Shown here piece by piece: positions 512 through 59,412 of a stretch of DNA of 64,000 bases; position 1 is the stretch's first letter, and each line of letters starts with the position of its first letter. Below the pieces are notes generated by a model. It was not told the DNA's origin and made no database searches. It saw only the letters and a program-made list of their open reading frames with translations. The DNA is from Octopus vulgaris (lineage: Eukaryota). Position numbers and translations under genes: made by a program. Location: positions 108,314,001 through 108,378,000 of the forward strand of contig OX597820.1 in assembly GCA_951406725.2 (NCBI GenBank), in the 5' to 3' direction.

Positions 512-3490
512 TCAGCTATTCGATTTGGGGCAGAACTTAGTTATGAAATATTTTTCCATATTCCTCCTGAAGGAGGAGTCATTCTTTGGACATTTGTAGA
601 AGGGAAAGATCTTAAATTTTCCTTGTCCACATGTATCTAGGTGTTTACTCAGTGGTATCTTGCGCAGTTCCTCCTGTTGGACATGTTGTCAGTGAATCCT
701 GGCTCGTTGGCATAAAGAATTTCCAGTTTCAGCTATATAATCCTCCTTGCACATGGGGCAGGTTATGCAGTATATTACATTCTGCGTTTTGCAGTTCATA
801 TCTGCATTTATTTTAAATATGTGACCACTTTTAAATTTCATTTCTTTGTCTCCCTCTATGTATTTGTAGGTGGGGTTACTGCAGATCCCACACCTATCAT
901 CTCTGCACTCTTTTACAAAGAATTCAGTTTTAGTTTCTGAAGAGAATTTCGCTCTTGTTAGATGTTTCTTTAGGTTTTTGTCTTGTCGTCTACTGTTTTT
1001 TATGCAATATTTATTTAGTATGTTTTCCATTTTGGGGCTTTCTAAGGCTATTGGCAGGTTTGAATGTATGATTTGGAACATGTTGGAAACTCCAGGGTTG
1101 TGTGTGTTTATGAAAGGGATAATGTTTTCTTTGTTTTTTGCTTTGGGTGTCCTGAGTTGTGCGATGTCTAGTTTCATTGCTCTTGTGATTCCATTTTCTA
1201 TTAGTTTAAGGGCGTATTTTTGCTCTAGCTGGAAGTTTTAAGTTCATCTAGCCTTATTAGTCGTGTTTGTGAGTCAGTTACTATGCTGTATATGCGTCTT
1301 GCCATACTATATGGGATGTTTCTTTTTGTGTGGGATGGGTGGCATGAGTGGAAATTTAAATATTGGTGTGTGTCAGTTTTTTTGTAGTGGATGTCTGTTG
1401 TGATGATGGAGTTGTGTATTTTGATGTTGATGTCTAGGAAGGAAGTTCGTTGTGGCTGGTATCTATTGTGAAGTTGATAGATGGATGCAGCGTATTGAGG
1501 ATGTTGTGGAATGTTTGTAGGTCTTCTTCTGATCTGTTCCAAAAGATGAAGCAGTCATCGAGGTAGCGTTTCCACTTTTTCTTAATGTCTTCCCTAAAGT
1601 CGTGTTCGAAGACTTTCCCTATTTCATCGTATAGTTTGTTCTCCAGGAAACCCATCACCAAGTTGGTATATGAAGGTGTGAATTTTGTACCCATAGCCGT
1701 GCCCTTTATCTGTTGGTATGTCTTGTTGAATGAGAACGTATTTCCTTTGAGTATTAATTGGGTGGCTTGGGTGATAAAGTCTGTCTTGAAACGTTCGTCT
1801 ATGAGTTCCCTGTATTTTTTTTACCGATTGTCTTATTGCTTTCAGACCTAGGGTGTGTGGTATGTTTGTGTATAGATTTGTGACATCGAAGCTTGCAAGT
1901 ATGGTGTTTTTCGGGACTGTATTTGGAATGTGTGTGAGGAAGTCTATGTCATCCTATATGTAGCTTGGTATCTGTGGGCATAAAGGTTTGAGGAGTACAT
2001 CTATGAAGTGGCTTAGTTGTTGTGCTGGTGCCTGGGGTCCTGCCACTATTGGTCTCATTGTGAGGTCTGCGGGTCTTTGTATTCTTATATAGTGGTTCCT
2101 CTGTTCCTTTATGGCTCTCTGTATTTCAGAGCTTTTATGAATTTTAGGTAATCCATAAAAGTTGCTATCTTTGGTTCTTGAGTTGCATAGATAGTCTTTC
2201 TCCTTATCTGTAAAGGAGTCCTGGTATTCATTGACTAAAGTTCTAATTTTTTTTATTGTTGCTTTCTCCGGTGGTGTGGGTTCCTCTTTATAGTATGTCT
2301 GGTTGTTCAGTAACTCCAGTATCTTTTCTTTGTAGTAATCTGTATCCATAACTATTGCTCCACCTTTGTCAGCTTCTTTTATAATGATTGACTTGTCATT
2401 TTTTAGTTTTTGTAAGGCTTGTTTTTCTCCTCTGCGGAGATTCTGTTTGCGTTTGTGTGTGTTGAGAGGGAATTTGGATATTGTCTCTACGTATGCGTCA
2501 AGGTGTTTGTCACTTCCTTTGTAAGGGGTGAAATGGGATTTTTTTCTTATGATTGAGTTATCTTCTGTTTCTTTATTTTCAAAGAATTCCATAAGGCGGA
2601 GGTGGCGGCTGAAGTTGTCTATATCAGTTTTTAGTTCTATGAGGTTTGGAGTGGGTGTAGGTGTAAATTTGAGGCCTTTTAGTAGTAGGTTCATTTCATT
2701 TTCGTTAAGTTCTCTTTTAGATAGGTTTATTATTTTGGGGTCTATGTGTTTTGTGTGTTCATCCAGAATTTTTGGTGTATTGAGTCTGGAGTATGGTTGA
2801 AGTATCCTTTCCCTAAAAAAGGGGTTGTGTTGTTGCGTCTCCAAATTCCATTTTCAGTTCTTAGGTTTTCTTGTAGTAGTAGGGGTGTTCTGTGTGGTCT
2901 GTATGTGTTGTTTTGTCTTTGGCAGTTGTTTTCTTCCCATCTTCTGTGTTTGTTGAGCCAATTTCTATTACTGTGGTTCAGGTTTCTTTGTGGGTAGGTG
3001 GATGGTTCATGTATTGTGTTTGTATTGTATTGATAGTGGGGGTTGTTTTTTATACATCTTGTAAATTTGTGGGGTTGCATGGGGTTGGTGTTTGTGTGGT
3101 TTGGATTTCCTCGATGTTTGTTGTAGGTTATGTGTTGATTTCTATCCACTTGTTTATTGTTCCATGTGTGTGTCCTTTTAGGATGTCCAGTGTTATGTGT
3201 TGGTGGTTGTTCATATTCTATTTGTTCTCTCCAAGTGTTATAGGTTGTTGGTTGTATGTATCGTGCTCGTCTTGCTGCTTGTGTGTTTGTCTTTGTGGGG
3301 TTTTGGGTTGATGGTTGACTTTCATATTTTGTGTGTCTGTTTATTGGTGTAAGGAGTGGGATTTTGGTTTGTGTTTGGTAGGGCTTATTTGGAAGTCTGG
3401 GAGTCCAATATGTTCGTGGTGTTGGTTTGTTGTATGTTTTCATTTGTTTTGTTAGTTTTTTTGTCTTCATAATTGATTTTTCCCCATAGT
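512..3490 (-). mobile_element. Penelope-like retroelement (RT + GIY-YIG), frameshifted, near full coding length
   Basis: Consecutive minus ORFs carry PLE motifs: IINLS..LLLKGLKFTPTP, IIKEADKGGAIV, FYGLPKIHK, MRPIVAG, MGTKFTPSYTNL, WKRYLDDCFIFW, FLDI..TDIHYKKTDTHQYL..SCHP, then a Cys linker CRDDRCGIC and GIY-YIG NVIYCITC..YIAET. The frame ends KYFITKFCPKSNS* at about 512. Confidence 0.93.
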
Positions 3491-6061: not shown

Positions 6062-6428
6062 GAGTTGCTTCCCAACCACATGGTTTTAGGTTCTGTCCCA
6101 CTGCATAGCATCTTGGGCAGGAGTTTTCTGCCATATCCTCAGGCTGTTTAAAGCCTTGTGAGTGGATTTGGTAGATGGGAATTGCAAGAGACCTGTTGTA
6201 AGTATATACGTGTGTGTCTTTGTGTCTGTGTTTATCCCCTACCACCTCTTGACAACTGATGTTGGTGGATATACGTCCCTGTAACTTAGTGGTTTGGCAA
6301 AAGAGACTGAGAGAATAAGAACTGGGGTTAAAAATAAACGTACTGGGGCTGATTCGTTTGACTGAAATTGTTCAAGGCAGTGCCCGAGCCTGGCTGTAGT
6401 CTGAAATAAGTAAAAGATAAAAGATATA
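6062..6428 (+). mobile_element. SINE (family B; many copies in the window)
   Basis: TTGCTTCCCAACCACATGGTT..GTCCCACTGC..GTGAGTGGATTTGGTAGA body with an AAAAGAT-type tail. Related copies lie at about 5600-5750(-), 8730-9070, 9500-9650, 24900-25215(-), 26770-27160(-), 47095-47390 and 57730-58245(-). Confidence 0.75.
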
Positions 6429-6774
6429 CAATGGACATCTTCTTGCTTTTGTCAACCAAAACCATTCACAAGGTTTTTGTTGGCCTGAAACAATAATCAA
6501 AGTGCCATGCAGTAAGACTAAACTCAAAACCATGTGGTTGGGAAGAAAACTTCTTAACTACACAGCCATGCCCATGCATGTACAAATGGTTATACACATA
6601 TGTTTATACAAAGACACAAATATAAACAGGAATTCACAATTCTAATCACATCTTTTCCTCCAGAGGCATTAACTTTTCAGAAATAACAGATATCAAATTA
6701 GAAAATGATGATGTTCATATTTTGTGAAGTATGATTATGTGCAATTGGCAATTAAAACCAAACTGTGGACTCAC

Positions 6775-6890
6775 CTCTCTGCTACTGGGGTCATGAGTTC
6801 AAAACATATGCTAGCTTCCATATATTTAGTATGCTTAAGTAAGATCAATAACTTTGCGAGCTTGAGTTTTGTTGGCTTGACATGTTCCAT
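6775..6890 (-). CDS. Putative first coding segment of an unidentified downstream gene (MEHVKPTKLKLAKLLILLKHTKYMEASICFELMTPVAE-)
   Basis: Strong Kozak context (aggATGG), 38 open codons plus 2 nt, ending exactly at a consensus donor GAG|GTGAGT. No homology recognised. Confidence 0.35.
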
Positions 6891-7051
6891 CCTTTGTAAG
6901 TAGTTAGCAGTAGGAAAAACTGTCAAAGTGATTTTGCTCTAATATGCAAATGTGAGAAATTATAAAAAAAACCTTTTCTGGTGTCAATGGATGTAAAATC
7001 AATGACAAAAAAACAAAAAGCACAATTTTTGATGTTTTAAAAATATGTTTA

Positions 7052-7876
7052 TTATTTATCTTCTTTATAGAGAAATAAGAAAAGTTTCAGTCCTCGTTTA
7101 GGGTGTGGTCTGCAAGAGAACAAGGCTCCTCGGAAAACCTCTACAGATAAGGTCAAGGCTAGCTGAATATCTGAAATGTTCCTTGGATAGAACTGGAGCA
7201 AAAAATGTCCATTGGGTTTTAAAATGTGAGAAACAAAAGAATAAAATCTTCCTAAAATGCATTTTGAATCTTTTGTAACTAATAACCACTGTAAAAATGA
7301 AGTACTGATGACAACATCAAAACAATTTGGGCGAAAGGGAAGTCTGTAACTATGGTCAAGTTGGAGGTAATCACAACTCTTCAAAGACTTCTTTTTCACA
7401 GCCATAGATAGCATTGACATACTAATGTCAGTGCCAATAAAATGGCAATTATTTGAAGTGAAACTTTCAGTACTTACACCTGTACCACAGCCAATGTCTA
7501 ACAACAACAATGGACTCTTATGGTAAATTAAAGAAATGATCTCAAATATTTTTCTCAGTATTGAATACTGAATATCTAATTGCCTAGTATTATTATTAAA
7601 AGAAAGAGCCAACTGTGGTGTGTAGAATAGGCGAGAGTCTGCTACTTTTAGTTCTGGTCTGCGCTGTTTGGCTGAAGTCTGTTTTAAGTTTGGAATGTTG
7701 AATTTTGATAAATCAAAGACTTGTTGATATTGAGTTATAAATGGTATCTTCTCTAGGTTAGTGTCTGGTAGAATGTAAATTAAATTTTCTGGGTTCTTGA
7801 TAGAAGAATGATAACGTATTATATAAACTGCAAATGACCTACTTCTGGTAAGCCATTGACAATTTGAGGTTATCAT
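7052..7876 (-). CDS. Divergent BUD23/WBSCR22-like class I SAM methyltransferase with N-terminal extension, single coding exon (274 aa)
   Basis: Intact ORF collinear with BUD23: RRPE..LFY..TRQLDIQ, LLDIGCGTGVS, IGTDISMSML, LPFRPNCFDVVISTSFLQWL, LQFYP, KLFLFL. First in-frame ATG is at 7876, with an in-frame TGA just upstream of the TTG at 7894. Polypyrimidine acceptor ..TTTTCTATTTTCAG puts the exon start at 7983. AATAAA overlaps the stop. Confidence 0.85.
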   Translation of the reverse strand: MITSNCQWLTRSRSFAVYIIRYHSSIKNPENLIYILPDTNLEKIPFITQYQQVFDLSKFNIPNLKQTSAKQRRPELKVADSRLFYTPQLALSFNNNTRQLDIQYSILRKIFEIISLIYHKSPLLLLDIGCGTGVSTESFTSNNCHFIGTDISMSMLSMAVKKKSLKSCDYLQLDHSYRLPFRPNCFDVVISTSFLQWLLVTKDSKCILGRFYSFVSHILKPNGHFLLQFYPRNISDIQLALTLSVEVFRGALFSCRPHPKRGLKLFLFLYKEDK

Positions 7877-8177
7877 TGGCAGGCAAAAGTACAATCAACT
7901 TGACATGGGAGTAGTTCAGGAGATATTCAAACATGAATCATCAAAGTCAATTAAGGAAGTGGATTATTCAACAAATAACATAACTGAAAATAGAAAACAA
8001 AAAAAAAACATAAAATTTCACCAAGATTCTAGACAACAAATGGGAGAACAACAATGGTACTTAATCTTTTGGCAGATAATCATCAATGAATGGCTGTAGA
8101 AATATTGTAACAGTACACAACAAATTATGATTCTTTTATTATGACTTTTATCAGTTGGCTGTGTAGAAAATGCTTAA

Positions 8178-10993: not shown

Positions 10994-13625
10994 GTGGATA
11001 AGGTTACAGAGGTAGTTAGAGTATGCGATAGAGTACTTAAGCTCAGGCTAGTCTTGCAGAATAGTATAGCTACAATTATATCTGCCTATGCCCCACAAGC
11101 GGGCCTACAAAATGAACAGAAGAATCATCATCATCGTTTAATGTCAGCTTTCCATGCTAGCATGGGTTGGATGATTTGACTGAGAACTTGCGAACCAGAT
11201 GGCTGCACCAGGCTCCAGTCTGATCTGGCTGAGTTTCTACAGCTGGATGCCCTTCCTAACGCCAACCACTCCGAGAGTGTACTGGGTGCTTTTATGTGCC
11301 ACCAGCACAAGGGCCAGTCGAGTGGTACTGGCAATGGCCACACTCAAATTGTGTCTTTTACATGCCACCTGCACAGGAGCCAGTTAAGCGGCACTGGCAA
11401 TGACATCACTCGAATACTTTTTCACATGCCACCAGTATGGAAGCCAGCCAACTGCTCTGGCAACGAACACGCTTGGATGGTGCTCTTAGCGCTGCACTAG
11501 CATGGATGCCAGTCATCGAATTTGATTCGATTTCAGTTTCACTTGCCTCAACAGGTCTTCGCAAGCAGAGTTTAGTGTCCAATGAAGGAAAGGTATGCAT
11601 AAGTGGGCTGGTTACACCCCTGGCATAGGCCACGAGGTTATGGTCTCACTTGGCTTGCTGGGTCTTCTCACGCACTGCATATTTCTAAAGATCTCGGTCA
11701 CTAATCATGGCCTTGGTGAGGCCTAATATTTGAAGGTCGTGCTTCACCACCTCATCCCAGGTCTACCTCTTCCGCAGGTTCCCTCAACCGCTAGGGTGTG
11801 GCACTTTTTCACACAGCTATTTTCATCCATTCTCGTCACATGACCATACCAGCACAGTCTCTCTTGCACACCACATCTGATGCTTCTTAGGTCCAACTTT
11901 TCTCTCAAGGTACTTACACTCTGTCGAGTATGAACACTGACATTACACATCCATCGGATCATACTGGCTTCATTCCTTGCGAGCTTACGTCTGTCCTCAG
12001 CAATATTTCACTGCCATGTAGCATGGCTGTTTGTACACATGCGTCATACAGTCTACCTTTTACTCTGAGCGAGAGGCCCTTTGTCACCGCAGGGGTAGGA
12101 GCTCTCTGAACTTTGCTCAAGCTATTCTTATTCCAGCAGCTACACTTTCAGCGCACCCTCTCCTGCTACTGACTTGGTCCCCTAGGTAACGGAAGCTATC
12201 AACTACTAGTTTTTCTCCCTGGAATGTGGCAGAAGTTGTTCTCTGCACATTTTCAGTGTTTATTGCTCCTGAGCATCTGCCACATACAAAAACTATCTTC
12301 CCAGTTAGCCTTCCTTTGATATTGCTGCTTACACTGGGTACATCTTTTAGAGTTTCTACCTATGCCTTTTCTGCAGATTGAGCAGGGCCAACTACCTGAA
12401 GGGATTTGTGGTTTGTCTGCTTTCCTACTTATTAGGACTTTGGTTTTAGCTACGTTGACTCTAAGGCCCTTCAATTCTAATCCTTGCTTCCACACTTGAA
12501 ACTTCTCCTCTAGTTCTGATAGTGACTCAGCAATTAGAGCAAGGTCATCAGCATAGAGGAGCTCCCAGGGGCATCCTGTCTTGAATTCCTCTGTTATTGC
12601 CTGGAGGACTATGATAAATAGGAGGGGGGGCTAAGAACTGAATCTTAGTGGACCCCTACCTCTATCAGGAATACTTCACTGTACTCATTGCCAACCCTCA
12701 TAAACCACTTTTATGCTATTCTTCTGCAGGCTACCTCCAATATGTGTGACAATGATCTCATCTTCATTGCTGAGGATTTCATTGAGCAGTCCAGTATCTA
12801 CCATGGTGTACATGGAGGCCATGGAATCAGTTCCTGAGGTGAAGAGGGAACAAGACTACTGGAGATCTGTGATGCAAATAATCTTTTGATCGTCAACACC
12901 AACTTCAGGAAGCCAGCTAGCCACCTGATAACTTATCAATCAGGTGACTCTGCTAGCCAAATTGATTTCATTCTCACCAGGCAGTGGTATGCATGGTTGC
13001 TCTCAAAAGCAAAGACTCTCCCTGGTGAATAATGTACCCCAAGCATAGACTAGTCATTAGTGACTGTAGACTCTAGGCCAGAAGGAAGCCAAAAAGAAGA
13101 CTAATTTGGAAAAGAAGGATTTGGAAGCTTAAGGACTCTTCAAATGGTCTGAGATTTAGGGACATCCTAACTGAGAAATTTGATGAGAGGGAGGAGCAGC
13201 TACAAACTTGTGATATAGAGGGCAACTGGGAATTCCTGTGGGATAGTTTGCTGAGTGCCACAGACCAAATCTGTAACTGATGCAAAGTCCTTTCCAGACC
13301 TAGCGTAACGTGGTGGTGGAACAAAACTATAGACAGGGCCATTAGAACAAAGAAACAGACCTGGAAGAGTGGGAACAGCAAGGAACTGTGTCAGATAGCC
13401 AGAAGGGAAGCTAGGAGACAGATATATCTAGCCAAGGAAGAAGCAGAAAAGAAGTTTGCCTTTGTTCAGTGCCGTGATGACCAACAAACTGAAGTATTTC
13501 AGATTGCAAGGCAGTGTGTTAGAGAAAATTGTGATGTCATAGGTGAGAAATGTTTCTGTATGGATGATGGTGCCCTTGCTTTTAATGAATATGCAAAGAA
13601 AGCGGCTAGGAGACGCCATTATGGA
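10994..13625 (+). mobile_element. RTE LINE APE/linker fragment, interrupted by an inverted same-family 3' fragment
   Basis: RVCDRVLKLRLV..IISAYAPQAG (10994-11120) resumes at about 12702. It is homologous to 51690-52760. Confidence 0.8.
11124..12700 (-). mobile_element. RTE LINE 3' half with 3'UTR and (GAT)n tail
   Basis: LLYADDL region, WKQGLELKGLRVN, WYGHVTRMDE and GRGRP, with a reverse (CAT)n tail at 11124. Confidence 0.9.
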
Positions 13626-13639
13626 AGACTGAATGAACT

Positions 13640-16260
13640 CCAGTGGTCTGCATGTGCTCTCCATCTGCAGGGAATTCAGTCTAAGCATCACAAATACCTA
13701 TTTTCAAAAGTGAAATTGTTGCAAGACAACCTCGATGCATCCTAGATCTAAGGATAGGCATCTCATAGACTATGTTATCACTAAGAAATGAGATATGAGG
13801 GACTTTAACATTACATGTTCCTTTCGTAACACCTGTTATCTCTCTGACCAATCTCTTCTCTGTAGTAAGGCTAGGGTTCATCTGAAACACATATGACTAT
13901 AAAAGTCATCGGTACCTAAGTGCATTAATGTTCTGCCTTTGAAAACTGTTGAAAAGCAGGCTGAGCTCTCTATCAAGTTGGACTCTGCACTCAACACTGT
14001 TAATATCAATGATCACATAGTATCATCTTGGAAGGCTCTGCATGATACAATGCATTCTGCATGTGTAGAGATTCTTTGATTTCCTGTTTGTAAACAAGAT
14101 TGGTTCAATGATAACAACACCGATATCCAACAATTGATAGATAAAATGCACAGCTCTCACAGAACATAGATAAATGATAAGAGTTCATCCAGAAAAGAGA
14201 ATGCCTACAAGATATGCAGAGGCCAGGTTCAATGTACTTTGAGATAGATGAAGGAGACTTGGTGGTCTTTCAAGGCTACTGAACTCCAAGAAGCTGCAGA
14301 CAGAAAGGATTCTAAAGCCTTTTATGATGGCCTCAAGAAAGTGTAAGGCCCTCAAGAGCACGGTGTTACTCCTATTTTTTCATTGAATAGAGAGACACTT
14401 GACTGACAAATCTGATGTCCTGAAACGATGGAAAGATCACTTCGAAGCTGTGTTGAACTCTACCTCAGTCACTAATGATGACGTTATAATGTCTATTCCG
14501 TAGCACACTGAAATACCAGAACTGTCTCTGGAGCCAACCTTCCTGGAAGTGGTAAACTCTATTAAACAAATCTCTTCTAGTAAAGTGCCTGGAAGGAATG
14601 CTGTTCCTCCAGAAATTTACAAGCATGGTGGACAGAAGCTTTTTAAGAAATTGCATGACCTCTTCATAAACATTTGGATGGTAGGCCGTGAACCAGAGGA
14701 CTTCAATTCAAATCTTTATAAGAACAAAGGAAACAGAAGTGTCTGTGATAATCATGGAATATTGCTTGTCTATTGCTGGAAAGATTCTTGCTTGACAGGA
14801 TCATCAAACACATAAATGATATCTATCTAAAATCACAGTGCAGATTTCACTCTGGTTATGGCACTATCGACATGATCTTTTCCCTTCAACAGGTCACAGA
14901 GAAAGTACATGAAAAAAATCAAGAGTTGTTCTTGATATTTGTTGACCTTACTAAGGCCTTAGACACTGTTAACTGGCAAGCACTATGTAAAGTTCTGAAA
15001 AAGCTTTGTATACCTGACAAGATGTTGAATGTCATCATCTCCTTTCATGAGGGAATGAAGGCTGCTGTTGTATCCGGTGAGGACTCTTCAGCTTCCTTCG
15101 ACATTACAAACAGCACAAAGCTAGGTTGTGTTACGGTCTGTTCTGTTTGTACTCTTCTTTTCAGTGAAGCTGAGGTATGCTTTTAACGACAAAGTGGTGT
15201 CATATTCAAGTTTCAGACAATACTATTCAATCATCAGTGTTTCAAAGCCAGAACACTGCTCCACACCAGTATCAGTTGTCATCTAATTTTTGCAGATGAT
15301 GCTGCACTAGTAGCGACCTGCTTAGAGGAAGCTCAGAACTTCTAGACTGGTTTTCTGCTGCATGTAAAGCCTTTGGCTTGATCATCAGTATAAAGAAGAC
15401 AGAAGTAATCCACCAACCTTGCCCAACTCCTAATCAAATTTGAGGTGTCAAGCAAAGGCCACCGGTTCACAATTTCCTGACACTCCTATACAGGTTGATG
15501 GGAAAAGCCTAAATTATGTAAAGTCATTTACATATCTTGGTAGTAAAGTGAATTCCCATGATGATGAAATTGTCAGATGTCTTGCAAAGGCAACCAATAC
15601 ATTTGGCAAACTCCGTCATCTATGGAATAAAAGGGGCATCAAACTTGACGCTAAAGTAGAGGTCTATAAAGCCACCATTCTTACTACTCTCTTGTATGGC
15701 TCAGCATCGTGGATACCCTATAGATGACACATTAACCAACTAGACATCTTCTGCAAACTGTCTGAGACAATCTGCAGTTATTCCCTAAAAGATAGAGTTT
15801 CTAATGCTGACTTGTTTAACAAGTGTAAGATTGGTGAAATCGAGAGCTTCCATATGCAATCACAATTGTGCTGGGCTGGCCATGTCATCAGAATGAGTGA
15901 CGAAAGAATACTCAAAGTCCTCATGTATGGCCAGCTTGAGAGTGGGCACAGGAATGTTGGTTGACTATGGCTCAGATATAAGGACAAGCTGAAGAGTAGC
16001 CCCTTAGAAATGAAGATAACTCACAACACCTCTGAGTGAACAGCCTTGGAACGAATAAAATGGATATCGTTGTGTCAAAATGGTATAAAAACTTTGTTGC
16101 AACCAGCATTAACAGGCTTTGGGGTGAAAGGTAAAGGAGAAAAGCAGCTGCAAATATACCACCTGCACTGACGTGTAATCCTCATACTCGCAGCATTTGT
16201 GGTCTTCTTTGCAAATTGTTGGCGGGACTTAAATGTCACATTCGACATAAGCATTATGAT
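13640..16260 (+). mobile_element. Second RTE (BovB-like) LINE, decayed
   Basis: KVPGRNAVPPEIYKHGG, GTIDMIFSLQQVTEK, FVDLTKALDTVN, FADDAAL, FTYLGS, LLYGSASW and WAGHVIRM, with many stops and frameshifts. Confidence 0.88.
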
Positions 16261-19221: not shown

Positions 19222-19344
19222 TACTAAAAGAATAAAAATAGAAAATATATACCTTGTATTGAATCCACCAAAACAAAAACTTTGAATTACCATACTAATA
19301 ATAAAATAAATGAGATTATTATTTGGCTAATCTTACCTTTTGCC

Positions 19345-51599: not shown

Positions 51600-54500
51600 T
51601 ATATTGCAAAGAACACAGATACAAGATTTTCTGGGCAGGGAACACTGACGGGGTTGGGGGCGTGGGTATACTTCTTGCTGAAAAATGGGTAGATAAGGTA
51701 ATTGAGGTAATCAGGGTATGTGACAGAATACTTAAGATTAGATTAGTGCTTCATCATGGATTAGCAACCATTATATCAGCCTCTGCCCCTCTGCCTGGGC
51801 TACCCGATAGACAGAAAGACCGATTCTATGACACCCTACTGCAGACTACCTCATTGACGAACGACAGAGACCTTCTCTTTGTGGCTTGTGATTTCAATGG
51901 GAATGTTGGAAAACATGCTGGGGGCTTCCATGGTGTACGTGGAGGTTATGGTTATGGTTCCCGCAACGAGGAGGGAACCAGGCTGCTGGAGTTCTGCGAT
52001 GCAAATGACCTTATGGTTTGCAACTCTAACTTCAGGAAACCTACCAGTCACCTACCGATCGGGACGACATACTAGCCAAATTGACTACATCCATACCAGG
52101 AAAAGGGAAAGATGGCTGCTTATAAATGCCAAAACCTTCCCAGGCGAAGAATGTACCCCACAACATAGACTGGTAGTTAGTGACTTTAGGATCAGGACTA
52201 AGAGGACGACTAGAAGACGACCAACATGGAGAAGAAGGATCTGGAAGCTTAAATATCCTGCGAATGGACAGAGACTTAGGGAAATATTACTTGAAGCCTT
52301 TGATGAAGTAGAAGGGGATATAGCTTCACATGGGGTAGAAGACAGCTGGAGGTCTCTAAGGGACAACCTGCTGAGAGCCACTGACCAGATCTGTGGCTGG
52401 TGCAAAGTCCCCTCTCGACCTAAAATAACGTGGTGGTGGAACAATGTTGTAGACAGGGCTATTAGAGAAAAGAGACAGGCTTGGAAGGACTGGAAGAATG
52501 GGGGTAGCAGGGAATTGTATCAGACTGCCCAAAGAGAAGCTAAGAGACAGGTTTATTTAGCCAGAGGGGAAGCAGATAAGAAAAAATTTGCCAATGTTCT
52601 GCGCCATGAAGACCAAAGACTTGAGGTATTTCATGTTGCAAGACAGTGTGTGAGAGAAAATCATGATGTGGTAGGAGAGAAATGTGTTCACATGGTTGAT
52701 GGTTCACTTGCGCTAAATAAGGTTGCAAAGAGAGAGGTTTGGAGATGCCACTATGAAAGGTTGCTGAATAAAGAAAATGAATGGGATGAAGAGAGTCTGC
52801 CGAATGTCGACCCAATGGAGGGACCAGCCATCCAAGTTGACTATTCTTTGGTAGTTAAAGCAATTAGAAGCATGAAGACAGGGAAAGCCCCAGGCCCATC
52901 AGGAATTACTGCAGAGATGCTCAAAATATCTGGCAGTGTCAGCTATAACCTAGTCACCTGTATAGTTAACCAGGTGATACACGAAGGAGTCATACCCAAT
53001 GACTGGTGTAGCAGCATAATAGTCAACTGCTACAAAGGTAAAGGTGACGCTCTACATACAAATAATTACAGAGGTATCAAGCTGTTGGATCAGGTAATGA
53101 AAGTTACGGAGAGGGTCATAGCCCAACTAATTAGAGAGAGAGTGTTAGTTTAGATGAGATGCAGTTTGGGTTCGTGCCAAGGAAAAGCATCACTGATGCC
53201 ATATTTCTGGTAAGACAGATGCAGGAGAAATACCAAGCCAAAGATAAGCCCCTGTACCTGGCTTTCGTTGACATTGAGAAAGCCTTCGACAGGGTCCCCC
53301 GATCCCTTATCTGGTAGTCAATGAGGAAACTAGGGATAGTGAGAGCTGTGCAAGCCATGTACAGGGACGCTGCTAGAAAGGTGAGGGTTGGCAACGAGTA
53401 CAGTGAAGAATTCCGGGTAGAGGTAGGGGTCCACCAAGGTTCAGTTCTCAGCCCCCTCCTATTTATCATAGTCCTCCAGGCAGTAATGGAGGAATTCAAG
53501 ACAGGATGCCCCTGGGAGCTCCTCTATGCTGATGACCTTGCTCTAATTGTTGAGTCACTATCAGAACTGGAAGAGAAGTTTCAGGTGTGGAAGCAAGGAT
53601 TAGAATTGAAGGGCCTTAGAGTCAACCTAGCTAAAACCAAAGTCGTAATAAGTAGGAAGGTAGACAAGTCAAAAGCACCTTCAGGTAGATGGCCCTGCTC
53701 GATCTGTAGAAAAGGCGTAGGTAGAAACTCTATAAGATGCACCAAGTGTAAGGTATGGACACATAAGAGGTGCAGCAATGTCAAGGGAAGGCTAACTAGG
53801 AAGATAGTTTTGTATGTGGCAGATGCTCAGGAGCAATAAACAATGAAAATGCTCTGAGACCAACTTCTGTCACTTTCCAGGGAGAAAAACTAGAAATAGT
53901 TGATAGCTTCCATTACCTAGGGGACCAAGTCAGTAGCGGGGGCAGGTGTGCTGAAAGTGTAACTGCTAGAGTAAGAATAGCTTGAGCAAAGTTCAGAGAG
54001 CTCTTACCTCTGCTAGGGACAAAACCCCTCTCGCTCGGAGTAAAAGGCAGACTGTATGACGTATGTGTACGAACAGCCATGCTACATGGCAATGAAACGT
54101 GGGCTGTGACTGCTGAGCATATGCGTAAGCTCGCAAGAAATGAAGCCAGTATGCTCCGATGGATGTGTAATGTCAGTGTTCATACTTGAGAGAAAAGTTG
54201 GACCTAAGAAGCATCAGTTGTGGTGTGCAAGAGAGACATTTGCGCTGGTGTGGTCATGTGGCGAGAATGGATGAAGATCGTTGTGTGAAAAAGTGCCACA
54301 CCCTAGCGGTTGAGGGAACCTGTGGAAGAGGTAGACTCAGGAAAACCTGGGACAAGGTGGTGAAGCACGACCTTTGAACTTAGGTCTCACCGAGGAAATG
54401 ACTAGAGACCGAGACCTTTGGAAGTATGCTGTGCGTGAGAAGACCCGGCAGGACAAGTGAGACCATAACCTGTGGCCTCCGTCCACTTATGCATACATTT

Positions 54501-58319: not shown

Positions 58320-59412
58320 ATCATCTTCGTCGTTTAACGTCCACTTTCTATGCTGGCATGGATTGGACGATTTGACTGAGGACTGGCGAGCCAGAAGGCT
58401 GCACCAGGCTCCAATCTGATCTGGCAAAGTTTCTACTGCTAGATGTCCTTCTTAATGCCAACCACTCTGAGAGTGTAGCGGGTGCTTTTACGTGCCACCG
58501 GCACGAGGGCCAGTCAGCTGGTTCTGGCAATGATCACACACAAAAGGTGTTTTTTTATGTGCTACCTGCATGGGAGCCAGTTCGGTGGCACTGGCAACAG
58601 CCACACACAAATGTTGTTTTTCATGTGCTGGTAAGGCAACGATCATGCATGAATGGTGCTTTTTACGTTCCACTGGCACGAGTGCCAATCAGGTGGTACT
58701 GGCATCGGCCATGTCAGTGATTTTGATTTCACTTGCCTCAATAGGTCTTCACAAGCAAAGTTTATTGTCCAGTGAATGAGGGGTACTCATAAAAGTGGGC
58801 TGGTTACACCCACTGGCATAGACCATGATCTATAGAATCACTTGGCTTATCAGGTCTTCTCAAGTACAGCATATCTCCAAAGGTCTCAGTCACTAGTCAT
58901 TGCCTTGGTGAGGCCCATTGTTCGAAGGTCATGCTTCACCACCTCATCGCAGGTCTTCCTGGGTCTACCTCTTCCACAGTTCCCTCAACTGCTAGGGTGT
59001 GACACTTTTTCACACAGCTGTCCTCATTCATTCGCAACATATGACCACACCAGCGCAGTCGTCTCTCTTGCACACCACATCTGATGCTTCTTAGGTCCAA
59101 CTTTTCTCTCAAGGCACTTACATTCTGTTGTGTATGCACACTGACATTACACATCCATCGGAGCATACTGGCGTCATTTCTTGCAATCTTAGGCATGTCC
59201 TCAGCAGTCACAGTCAATGTTTCCCTGCCATGTAGCATGGCTGTTCGTACACATGCATCATATAGTCTACCTTTTACTCTGAGCAAGAGGCCGTTTGGCA
59301 CAAGCAAAGGTAGGAGCTCTCTGAACTTTGCCCAGGCTATTCTTATTCTAGCAGCTACACTTTCAGAGCATCCACCCGCTGCTACTGACTTGATCCCTAG
59401 GTAACGGAAGCT
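58320..59412 (-). mobile_element. RTE LINE 3' fragment
   Basis: KGRLYDACVRTAMLHG and RLRWCGHMLRM, homologous to 53900-54600. Confidence 0.88.

What the first reader, a model, noticed from the sequence alone, without database searches (positions are those of the whole stretch)
7052..7876. Intronless BUD23 paralog apparently retargeted to mitochondria
Seen: an intact ORF collinear with the BUD23/WBSCR22 catalytic domain. It has about 71 extra N-terminal residues; the first 29 (MITSNCQWLTRSRSFAVYIIRYHSSIKNP) lack acidic residues, are R/S-rich and include an R-Y-H-S-S motif resembling an MPP cleavage site. It stops right after the last beta-strand (KLFLFLYKEDK), without the basic C-terminal tail. 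Known: BUD23 is a nuclear 18S rRNA m7G methyltransferase that starts almost directly at RRPE and is multi-exon in animals, and I know of no m7G in animal mitochondrial rRNA. Inference: a retrocopy-derived, neofunctionalised mitochondrial RNA methyltransferase, possibly making an undescribed modification.
Basis: partly seen in the sequence, partly recalled or inferred. Interest (0 to 1): 0.85.

Follow-up and report, generated by a model that had tools for sequence, protein, structure and literature searches.

The report
Candidate writer of mitochondrial wobble m7G
This octopus gene is an intact second copy of the ribosomal RNA methylase BUD23, with relatives in many molluscs, a worm and a fluke; it is predicted to enter mitochondria and is likely the long-missing enzyme that methylates one serine tRNA so that it can read the codons AGA and AGG.

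Summary
The ORF is real (minus strand, 274 aa). It is a BUD23 paralog, but neither a cephalopod novelty nor a recent retrocopy. Canonical 11-exon BUD23 lies on another contig and is only 31% identical. Relatives with the same build (leader, about 44-residue module, catalytic core, no basic tail) occur in 19 named species: cephalopods, mussels, snails, the annelid Owenia and a trematode. The leader evolves fast but stays basic and acid-poor, like a mitochondrial presequence; no predictor was run. The SAM motifs, BUD23 signature residues and three Trm112 contact residues are kept. A 2018 review says its gene is unidentified. This animal's own mtDNA has only a GCU tRNA for AGN codons and uses 63 AGA/AGG codons in 3,020 counted. 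Best explanation (0.55): this subfamily writes m7G34. Gaps: no named echinoderm carrier, Owenia's anticodon unchecked, the Mytilus models lack the leader, and location and activity are untested.

The parts
7052..7876 (-). Single coding exon, 274-aa BUD23 paralog
   Evidence: 96% identical to O. bimaculoides XP_014781371.1
7790..7876 (-). Residues 1-29: predicted cleavable mitochondrial presequence (no D/E, 4 K/R, RYHSS)
   Evidence: 6 of 29 identical to Argonauta against 142 of 203 in the core; pLDDT 46-59; subfamily composition. No predictor run.
7664..7789 (-). Residues 30-71: conserved subfamily module of unknown role (likely RNA binding or stabilising)
   Evidence: 31 of 42 identical to Argonauta; pLDDT 96-98 for residues 31-60; profile finds held-out members and no canonical BUD23
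7067..7663 (-). Residues 72-270: BUD23-type class I SAM methyltransferase domain (RRPE, Q103, DIGCG, D150, SxSxxQW, QFYP, K264; Trm112 contacts D169, R182, D187)
7048..7053 (-). AATAAA overlapping the stop codon, likely poly(A) signal
   Evidence: only AATAAA/ATTAAA on the minus strand in 6401-7100
7877..7983 (-). Predicted 5' UTR part of the coding exon, with four short upstream ATGs
7984..8010 (-). Strong splice acceptor (T-rich tract + CAG), predicted end of a 5' UTR intron
   Evidence: junction not observed
19332..19339 (-). Nearest strong consensus splice donor upstream; candidate end of a non-coding first exon (speculative)

Best explanation
This gene encodes an intact, ancient BUD23 paralog that is predicted to be imported into mitochondria and likely methylates N7 of the wobble guanosine (m7G34) of mitochondrial tRNA-Ser(GCU), which would let this one tRNA read AGA and AGG as well as AGU and AGC. 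Shown here: the ORF, the BUD23 fold and motifs, loss of the basic tail, a separate canonical BUD23, relatives across molluscs plus an annelid and a trematode, and a GCU-only AGN tRNA with AGA/AGG codons in this animal's mtDNA. From the literature: m7G34 in squid and starfish, no gene assigned as of 2018, and TRMT112 in the human mitochondrial matrix. Inferred: import and cleavage of residues 1-29; activation by TRMT112 or a mitochondrial Trm112-like protein; the 30-71 module replacing the lost tail to grip a small anticodon loop rather than a pre-40S particle; and the substrate itself.
For: Chemistry: the closest solved structures are BUD23, an N7-guanine methyltransferase. Of 63 columns conserved in at least 85% of 32 canonical BUD23 rows, 37 are kept in at least 70% of 30 subfamily rows; Q103, D127, G129, G131, D150, S191, W197, Q228, Y230, P257 and K264 are in 30 of 30. 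Yeast Trm112 contacts D94, R107 and D112 (PMC4678810) align to D169, R182 and D187. Location: residues 2-30 carry a net positive charge in 22 of 22 members that have a leader; D/E is 4.5% against 9.3% in the rest of the same proteins and K/R 18.8% against 11.8%. The leader is unalignable while the module and core are conserved. The tail after the last-strand motif is 16 residues or fewer in 28 of 30 members. Orphan activity: PMC6320965 reports m7G34 in squid and starfish mt tRNA-Ser(GCU) and says the gene has not been identified; PMC4033218 lists the enzyme as '?'. Substrate: the own mtDNA (G000:C227) has one AGN tRNA, anticodon GCU, and 50 AGA, 13 AGG, 42 AGT and 2 AGC in 3,020 codons of 12 frames. 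Range: GCT is used in all cephalopods then sequenced (PMC1544340), and GCU in molluscs, flatworms and echinoderms generally (PMC2678162). The only named bivalve carriers (2 of 19 named species) are Mytilus, the order that PMC3022732 singles out as GCU among mostly UCU marine bivalves. TRMT112 is imported into human mitochondria (PMC13539109).
Against: No named echinoderm carrier was found, although starfish has m7G34. Owenia is a carrier, but its anticodon could not be found, and the annelid Lumbricus uses UCU. The database proteins of both Mytilus species and of Gigantopelta start at or inside the module, with no leader; they were left out of the count of 22. The octopus leader is only modestly basic (net +3, matched by 35% of windows in the rest of the protein), and an RYHSS-like motif was found in only 6 of 20 leaders. 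Absence in UCU taxa (oysters, scallops) was not tested genome by genome. The anticodons of the named snails, limpet, abalone and fluke were not checked species by species (one search gave none). Related species are not independent. The IQ-TREE tree leaves the deepest members unresolved, and the module profile is not significant for the fluke or for three unnamed deep members. The 12S rRNA also keeps a candidate guanine.
Confidence: 0.55

Rival explanations
1. It is mitochondrial but keeps the ancestral type of job: methylating the equivalent guanine of 12S rRNA, or helping small-subunit assembly.
For: BUD23 acts on small-subunit rRNA (PMC5372719). The octopus 12S keeps a GGA near C227:7750 in the context I recall as equivalent to E. 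coli G1338 / yeast G1575 (the equivalence is recalled, not aligned).
Against: I found no report of m7G in animal mitochondrial rRNA in the papers read. Several canonical residues of the N-terminal helix are not kept (E21, K24 and R41 in octopus BUD23 numbering: 3, 1 and 2 of 30). An orphan m7G already exists on a tRNA in a cephalopod. To my recall vertebrates keep the rRNA site without such a paralog.
Confidence: 0.15
2. It is mitochondrial but methylates something else (another tRNA position, a protein or a small molecule); m7G34 is made by another enzyme, such as an imported METTL1-type protein.
For: The subfamily is very divergent (31% identity to octopus BUD23). Heterobranch members carry large inserts. 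No echinoderm carrier is named.
Against: The BUD23 signature residues outside the generic SAM motif (RPE, Q103, SxSxxQW, QFYP, P257, K264) are near-invariant in both groups.
Confidence: 0.14
3. It is not mitochondrial: a cytosolic or nuclear BUD23 paralog with a variable N-terminus and a non-ribosomal or tissue-specific role.
For: No targeting predictor or localisation was run. Mytilus and Gigantopelta database proteins lack the leader. The octopus leader is weakly basic.
Against: The leaders are unalignable yet consistently acid-poor and basic in 22 of 22 members. The basic C-terminal tail of canonical BUD23 is gone.
Confidence: 0.14
4. It is a recent, cephalopod-specific retrocopy of BUD23, possibly decaying.
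For: One coding exon, against 11 in canonical BUD23.
Against: Intact relatives in 19 named species of three phyla. The AU test rejects grouping with octopus BUD23 (p=0.010). Motifs are invariant.
Confidence: 0.01

Closest known systems
BUD23/WBSCR22-TRMT112 (yeast Bud23-Trm112), 18S rRNA m7G1639/G1575 methyltransferase
   Same: Fold (TM 0.90 by target, Z 25.6), RPE, SAM and SxSxxQW/QxYP motifs, three Trm112 contact residues
   Different: Has a leader and an about 44-residue module before RRPE, no basic C-terminal tail, one coding exon, a separate deep lineage, and 31% identity to the same genome's BUD23
Orphan activity: m7G34 of mitochondrial tRNA-Ser(GCU) in Loligo bleekeri and starfish (Tomita 1998, Matsuyama 1998, as cited in PMC6320965)
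   Same: Same chemistry (N7 of guanine), predicted same compartment, same animal class; the substrate tRNA is present in this animal's mtDNA
   Different: No gene assigned in the reviews read; the link is inferred here, not shown
TRMT11-TRMT112 in human mitochondria (PMC13539109)
   Same: A Trm112-dependent methyltransferase acting on mitochondrial tRNA
   Different: One dual-located gene making m2G10; here a dedicated paralog predicted to make m7G
Tail-less Asgard archaeal Bud23-like proteins
   Same: Nearest ESM Atlas clusters by features; no basic tail
   Different: No leader or module. The likeness may be shared loss of the tail or long-branch attraction; no transfer is claimed.

Membership tests
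BUD23/WBSCR22 orthologs | Class I SAM methyltransferase fold closest to Bud23 | tested here: met
BUD23/WBSCR22 orthologs | RPE, Q, DxGCG, SxSxxQW, QxYP, P and K signature residues | tested here: met
   that these line the guanine pocket is recalled, as the structure paper was not held
BUD23/WBSCR22 orthologs | Trm112 contact residues D94, R107, D112 | tested here: met
   D169, R182, D187 by alignment; binding itself not modelled
BUD23/WBSCR22 orthologs | Basic C-terminal tail (PF12589) | tested here: not met
   no PF12589 hit; ends 7 residues after the last-strand motif
BUD23/WBSCR22 orthologs | Orthology to canonical BUD23 | tested here: not met
   a separate canonical gene is 63% identical to the human-like P0100, against 31% to this protein; trees and AU test
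BUD23/WBSCR22 orthologs | Nuclear location and 18S rRNA substrate | not testable with these tools
   needs experiment
Writer of mitochondrial tRNA-Ser m7G34 (orphan activity) | Mitochondrial presequence | tested here: inconclusive
   composition and fast divergence fit; no predictor; absent from three database models
Writer of mitochondrial tRNA-Ser m7G34 (orphan activity) | The organism has a GCU-only AGN tRNA and uses AGA/AGG codons | tested here: met
Writer of mitochondrial tRNA-Ser m7G34 (orphan activity) | Present in GCU lineages including starfish and squid, absent in UCU lineages | tested here: inconclusive
   cephalopods and Mytilus fit; no squid or echinoderm member carries a name; Owenia unchecked; absences untested
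Writer of mitochondrial tRNA-Ser m7G34 (orphan activity) | N7 methylation of G34 | not testable with these tools
   needs assay
Recent retrocopy | Lineage-restricted and closest to the parent gene in the same genome | tested here: not met
Recent retrocopy | Loss of the parent's coding introns | tested here: met
   1 coding exon against 11; fits an ancient retro-origin but does not prove it

The most novel reading that the evidence does not exclude
An unnamed, at least spiralian-wide BUD23 subfamily moved from the nucleolar ribosome pathway to mitochondria and switched from rRNA to a tRNA anticodon. It is the enzyme behind AGA/AGG = serine in animals with tRNA-Ser(GCU), so keeping or losing this one nuclear gene would track and constrain changes of the animal mitochondrial genetic code (GCU to UCU anticodon switches, AGG avoidance or reassignment).
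Probability: 0.5. Interest if true: 0.92.

Novelty: new variant of a known kind. Interest (0 to 1): 0.84.

Why it matters
m7G34 has been the standard explanation since 1998 for how squid and starfish mitochondria read AGA/AGG as serine, yet reviews list no gene for it. A named candidate makes this directly testable with one recombinant protein and one tRNA. It also gives a genome-scale prediction: the gene should be present with GCU anticodons and lost with UCU. It would be a rare case of an rRNA biogenesis enzyme re-used on a tRNA anticodon in another compartment. Databases now label members as BUD23, 'uncharacterized' or '7SK capping enzyme'. If flukes need it and vertebrates lack it (the latter recalled, not tested), it could also be an antiparasitic target.

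Tried and rejected
Expression: no RNA holder listed. Of 24 runs listed, 20 hold the stretch. Eighteen small assemblies, 14 of them guessed to be RNA, hold 0.87-0.88 of its words, and two large ones hold 1.00. The predicted exon bounds would give 0.86-0.88, but so would an unspliced form. No reads were laid, so this is not used as evidence, and the splice junction and transcript ends are unobserved. dN/dS was not computed because no DNA of orthologs was obtained; a metagenome scan found none. Searches for more named members were weak: 7 hits with the 26-row alignment and 10 hits with the Physella C-terminal region, 9 of them heterobranch-like. The ESM Atlas showed no cluster of this subfamily; only clusters of 50 or more members are searched. 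Owenia's anticodon was not found, nor those of Hygrophila snails. The Aplysia tRNA preprint covers cytoplasmic tRNAs only (passages). No complex with TRMT112 was modelled: only single exons of the octopus gene were at hand, and a pass would mirror solved structures. The fold search barely tested residues 30-71, so no statement is made on whether that module has a known fold. Earlier scan notes held nothing on this locus or subfamily. Two papers were not held (PMC3191813, PMC4280632). The two 1998 primary papers were seen only as cited in reviews. No supplements were read; they may list such a gene.

Full report
Observation. The ORF lies on the minus strand at 7052-7876 and gives an intact 274-aa protein; its 280-codon frame exceeds all 300 shuffles (maximum 136). 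It hits generic methyltransferase Pfams but not the BUD23 tail family. Its five best solved-structure matches are at E 1e-19 or better, four named BUD23 and one 'methyltransferase-like protein'; the next is at 5e-6. The AlphaFold model from a 26-row alignment has pLDDT 88: low for residues 1-30 (46-59) and high for 31-60 (96-98). It matches BUD23 best. A 96% identical protein is annotated in Octopus bimaculoides as bud23-like or uncharacterized, so the window is from an octopus.

Gene structure. The coding sequence is one exon. A strong acceptor 107 nt before the ATG and an AATAAA over the stop suggest an exon of about 960 nt with an upstream non-coding exon. This is predicted, not observed. 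Four octopod orthologs sit on Logan contigs of 1,276-1,316 nt, a transcript-like size (inference).

A separate canonical gene. Searches of the own genome gave collinear exon hits on contig C1. They resolve into 11 exons with GT-AG ends and a 281-aa protein with the basic tail. It is 63% identical to a human-like BUD23 (P0100, identified by its match to the human chain) and 31% to the window protein. The window protein itself has one match in the genome at E 0.001 or better.

A subfamily. In a profile search of 1.84 billion representatives, the 16 best of the 150 listed rows, and 26 in all (picked by eye), end just after the last strand; most also have an N-terminal extension, and a few are fragments. 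Look-ups name 19 species: Octopus, Argonauta, two Mytilus, Patella, two Haliotis, Gigantopelta, Aplysia, Plakobranchus, two Elysia, Physella, Lymnaea, Bulinus, two Biomphalaria, the annelid Owenia and the trematode Dicrocoelium. The rest are unnamed. A FastTree tree of 143 of 158 rows (15 dropped for short coverage) and an IQ-TREE quick tree of 50 rows place the window protein with these members, away from octopus BUD23. Deep nodes are unresolved, branches are long, and I labelled the outgroup rows archaeal-like from their form, not from names. An AU test rejects a clade of the three cephalopod-like paralogs with octopus BUD23 (p=0.0102). A profile of the 44 residues before RRPE, trained on 11 named molluscs and run on 168 proteins, finds held-out members (E 7e-19 to 8e-4) and Owenia (0.003), with no canonical row under E 2. 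The fluke and three unnamed deep members are not significant, so their membership is less sure.

Catalytic state. Of 63 columns conserved in canonical BUD23, 37 are also conserved in the subfamily, including all SAM motifs and the BUD23 signature. The other 26 are relaxed, several in the N-terminal helix. The three yeast Trm112 contact residues (PMC4678810, passages) are kept. The genome has a TRMT112-like exon on C22 and a second Trm112-like gene on C30, which I recall as resembling mitochondrial PYURF. Human TRMT112 enters mitochondria (PMC13539109, abstract and passages).

Targeting. Against Argonauta, identity is 6 of 29 in the leader, 31 of 42 in the module and 142 of 203 in the core. In 22 members with a leader, residues 2-30 are all net positive, acid-poor and K/R-rich; the binomial p is under 1e-4 but ignores relatedness. 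In 33 canonical rows the net charge runs from -4 to +4. Against this: the octopus leader is only +3, and three named database models lack a leader. No predictor was available.

Substrate. A review states that m7G occurs at position 34 of mitochondrial tRNA-Ser(GCU) in starfish and in the squid Loligo bleekeri, that it allows reading of AGA and AGG, and that the gene is unidentified (PMC6320965, passages). Another lists the enzyme as '?' (PMC4033218, passages), and PMC4394434 calls the modification intriguing (passage). The own mtDNA (C227; 15,600 of 15,651 bases read) has one AGN tRNA with anticodon GCU and a UUU lysine tRNA. It uses AGA 50 and AGG 13 times in 3,020 codons of 12 stop-to-stop frames; some genes are broken by frameshifts in this assembly and were counted only in part. 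All cephalopods then sequenced use GCT (PMC1544340). Among marine bivalves GCU is the exception, found in Mytiloida (PMC3022732), the only named bivalve carriers here. Arthropods that read AGG as serine mostly changed the anticodon instead (PMC1440934), and no named carrier is an arthropod. All these papers were read as passages, as were PMC6319601, PMC5372719, PMC6144793, PMC2678162, PMC7682095 and PMC13107851.

What is missing. No echinoderm or squid member carries a name, Owenia's anticodon is unchecked while another annelid uses UCU, absences were not tested, and the 12S rRNA keeps a candidate guanine.

Novelty. Five literature searches showed no paper, by title or start of abstract, on this subfamily or on the m7G34 enzyme: 20 of 31 listed; 11 of 11; 4 of 4; 20 of 67; 20 of 71. 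The library lacks most subscription journals, so a report after 2018 cannot be excluded.

Verdict. This is a real, ancient BUD23 paralog and not a member of the BUD23 ortholog group. It is probably mitochondrial (about 0.84) and most likely the m7G34 writer (0.55). Novelty: new variant of a known kind. Interest 0.84, because it makes an open question from 1998 directly testable.

Noticed in passing
G000:C1:104225229-104248999 (L018-L020), minus: Canonical octopus BUD23: 11 coding exons, 281 aa, basic tail present.
   Followed up: yes
G000:C227 (L032, L033): The mitochondrial contig has cox1 and several other genes split by apparent frameshifts, probably assembly errors; about 37 further cox1-like matches lie on nuclear contigs.
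   Followed up: partly
G000:C30:1532795-1534400 (L034) and G000:C22:25603536-25603655 (L027): Two Trm112-family genes: a TRMT112-like last exon on C22, and two exons on C30 that I recall as PYURF-like. Either could be the activator.
   Followed up: partly
P0048, P0075, P0077, P0080, P0089, P0097, P0120, P0125, P0128, P0130, P0134, P0135, P0141, P0150: A second set of divergent BUD23-like proteins with long non-canonical C-termini; the Atlas shows a 585-aa cluster commonest in Chlorophyta. The same review lists an orphan m7G36 in Chlamydomonas chloroplast tRNA-Leu, so these may be worth testing as its writer.
   Followed up: no
P0017, P0020, P0022, P0024, P0043, P0050, P0064: Aplysia, Plakobranchus, Lymnaea and their unnamed close relatives carry large variable inserts after the second strand; the Aplysia and Biomphalaria pfeifferi proteins are labelled '7SK snRNA methylphosphate capping enzyme'.
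   Followed up: no
window 689-2694, about 12000-16000, 51897-53839, 58936-59404: Decayed retroelement-like reading frames (LINE/Penelope-like by my reading, not searched) and many (AT)n microsatellites, typical of octopus DNA.
   Followed up: no
window 7877-7983, minus: Four upstream ATGs with short frames (3-31 codons, one overlapping the main start out of frame) in the predicted 5' UTR.
   Followed up: no
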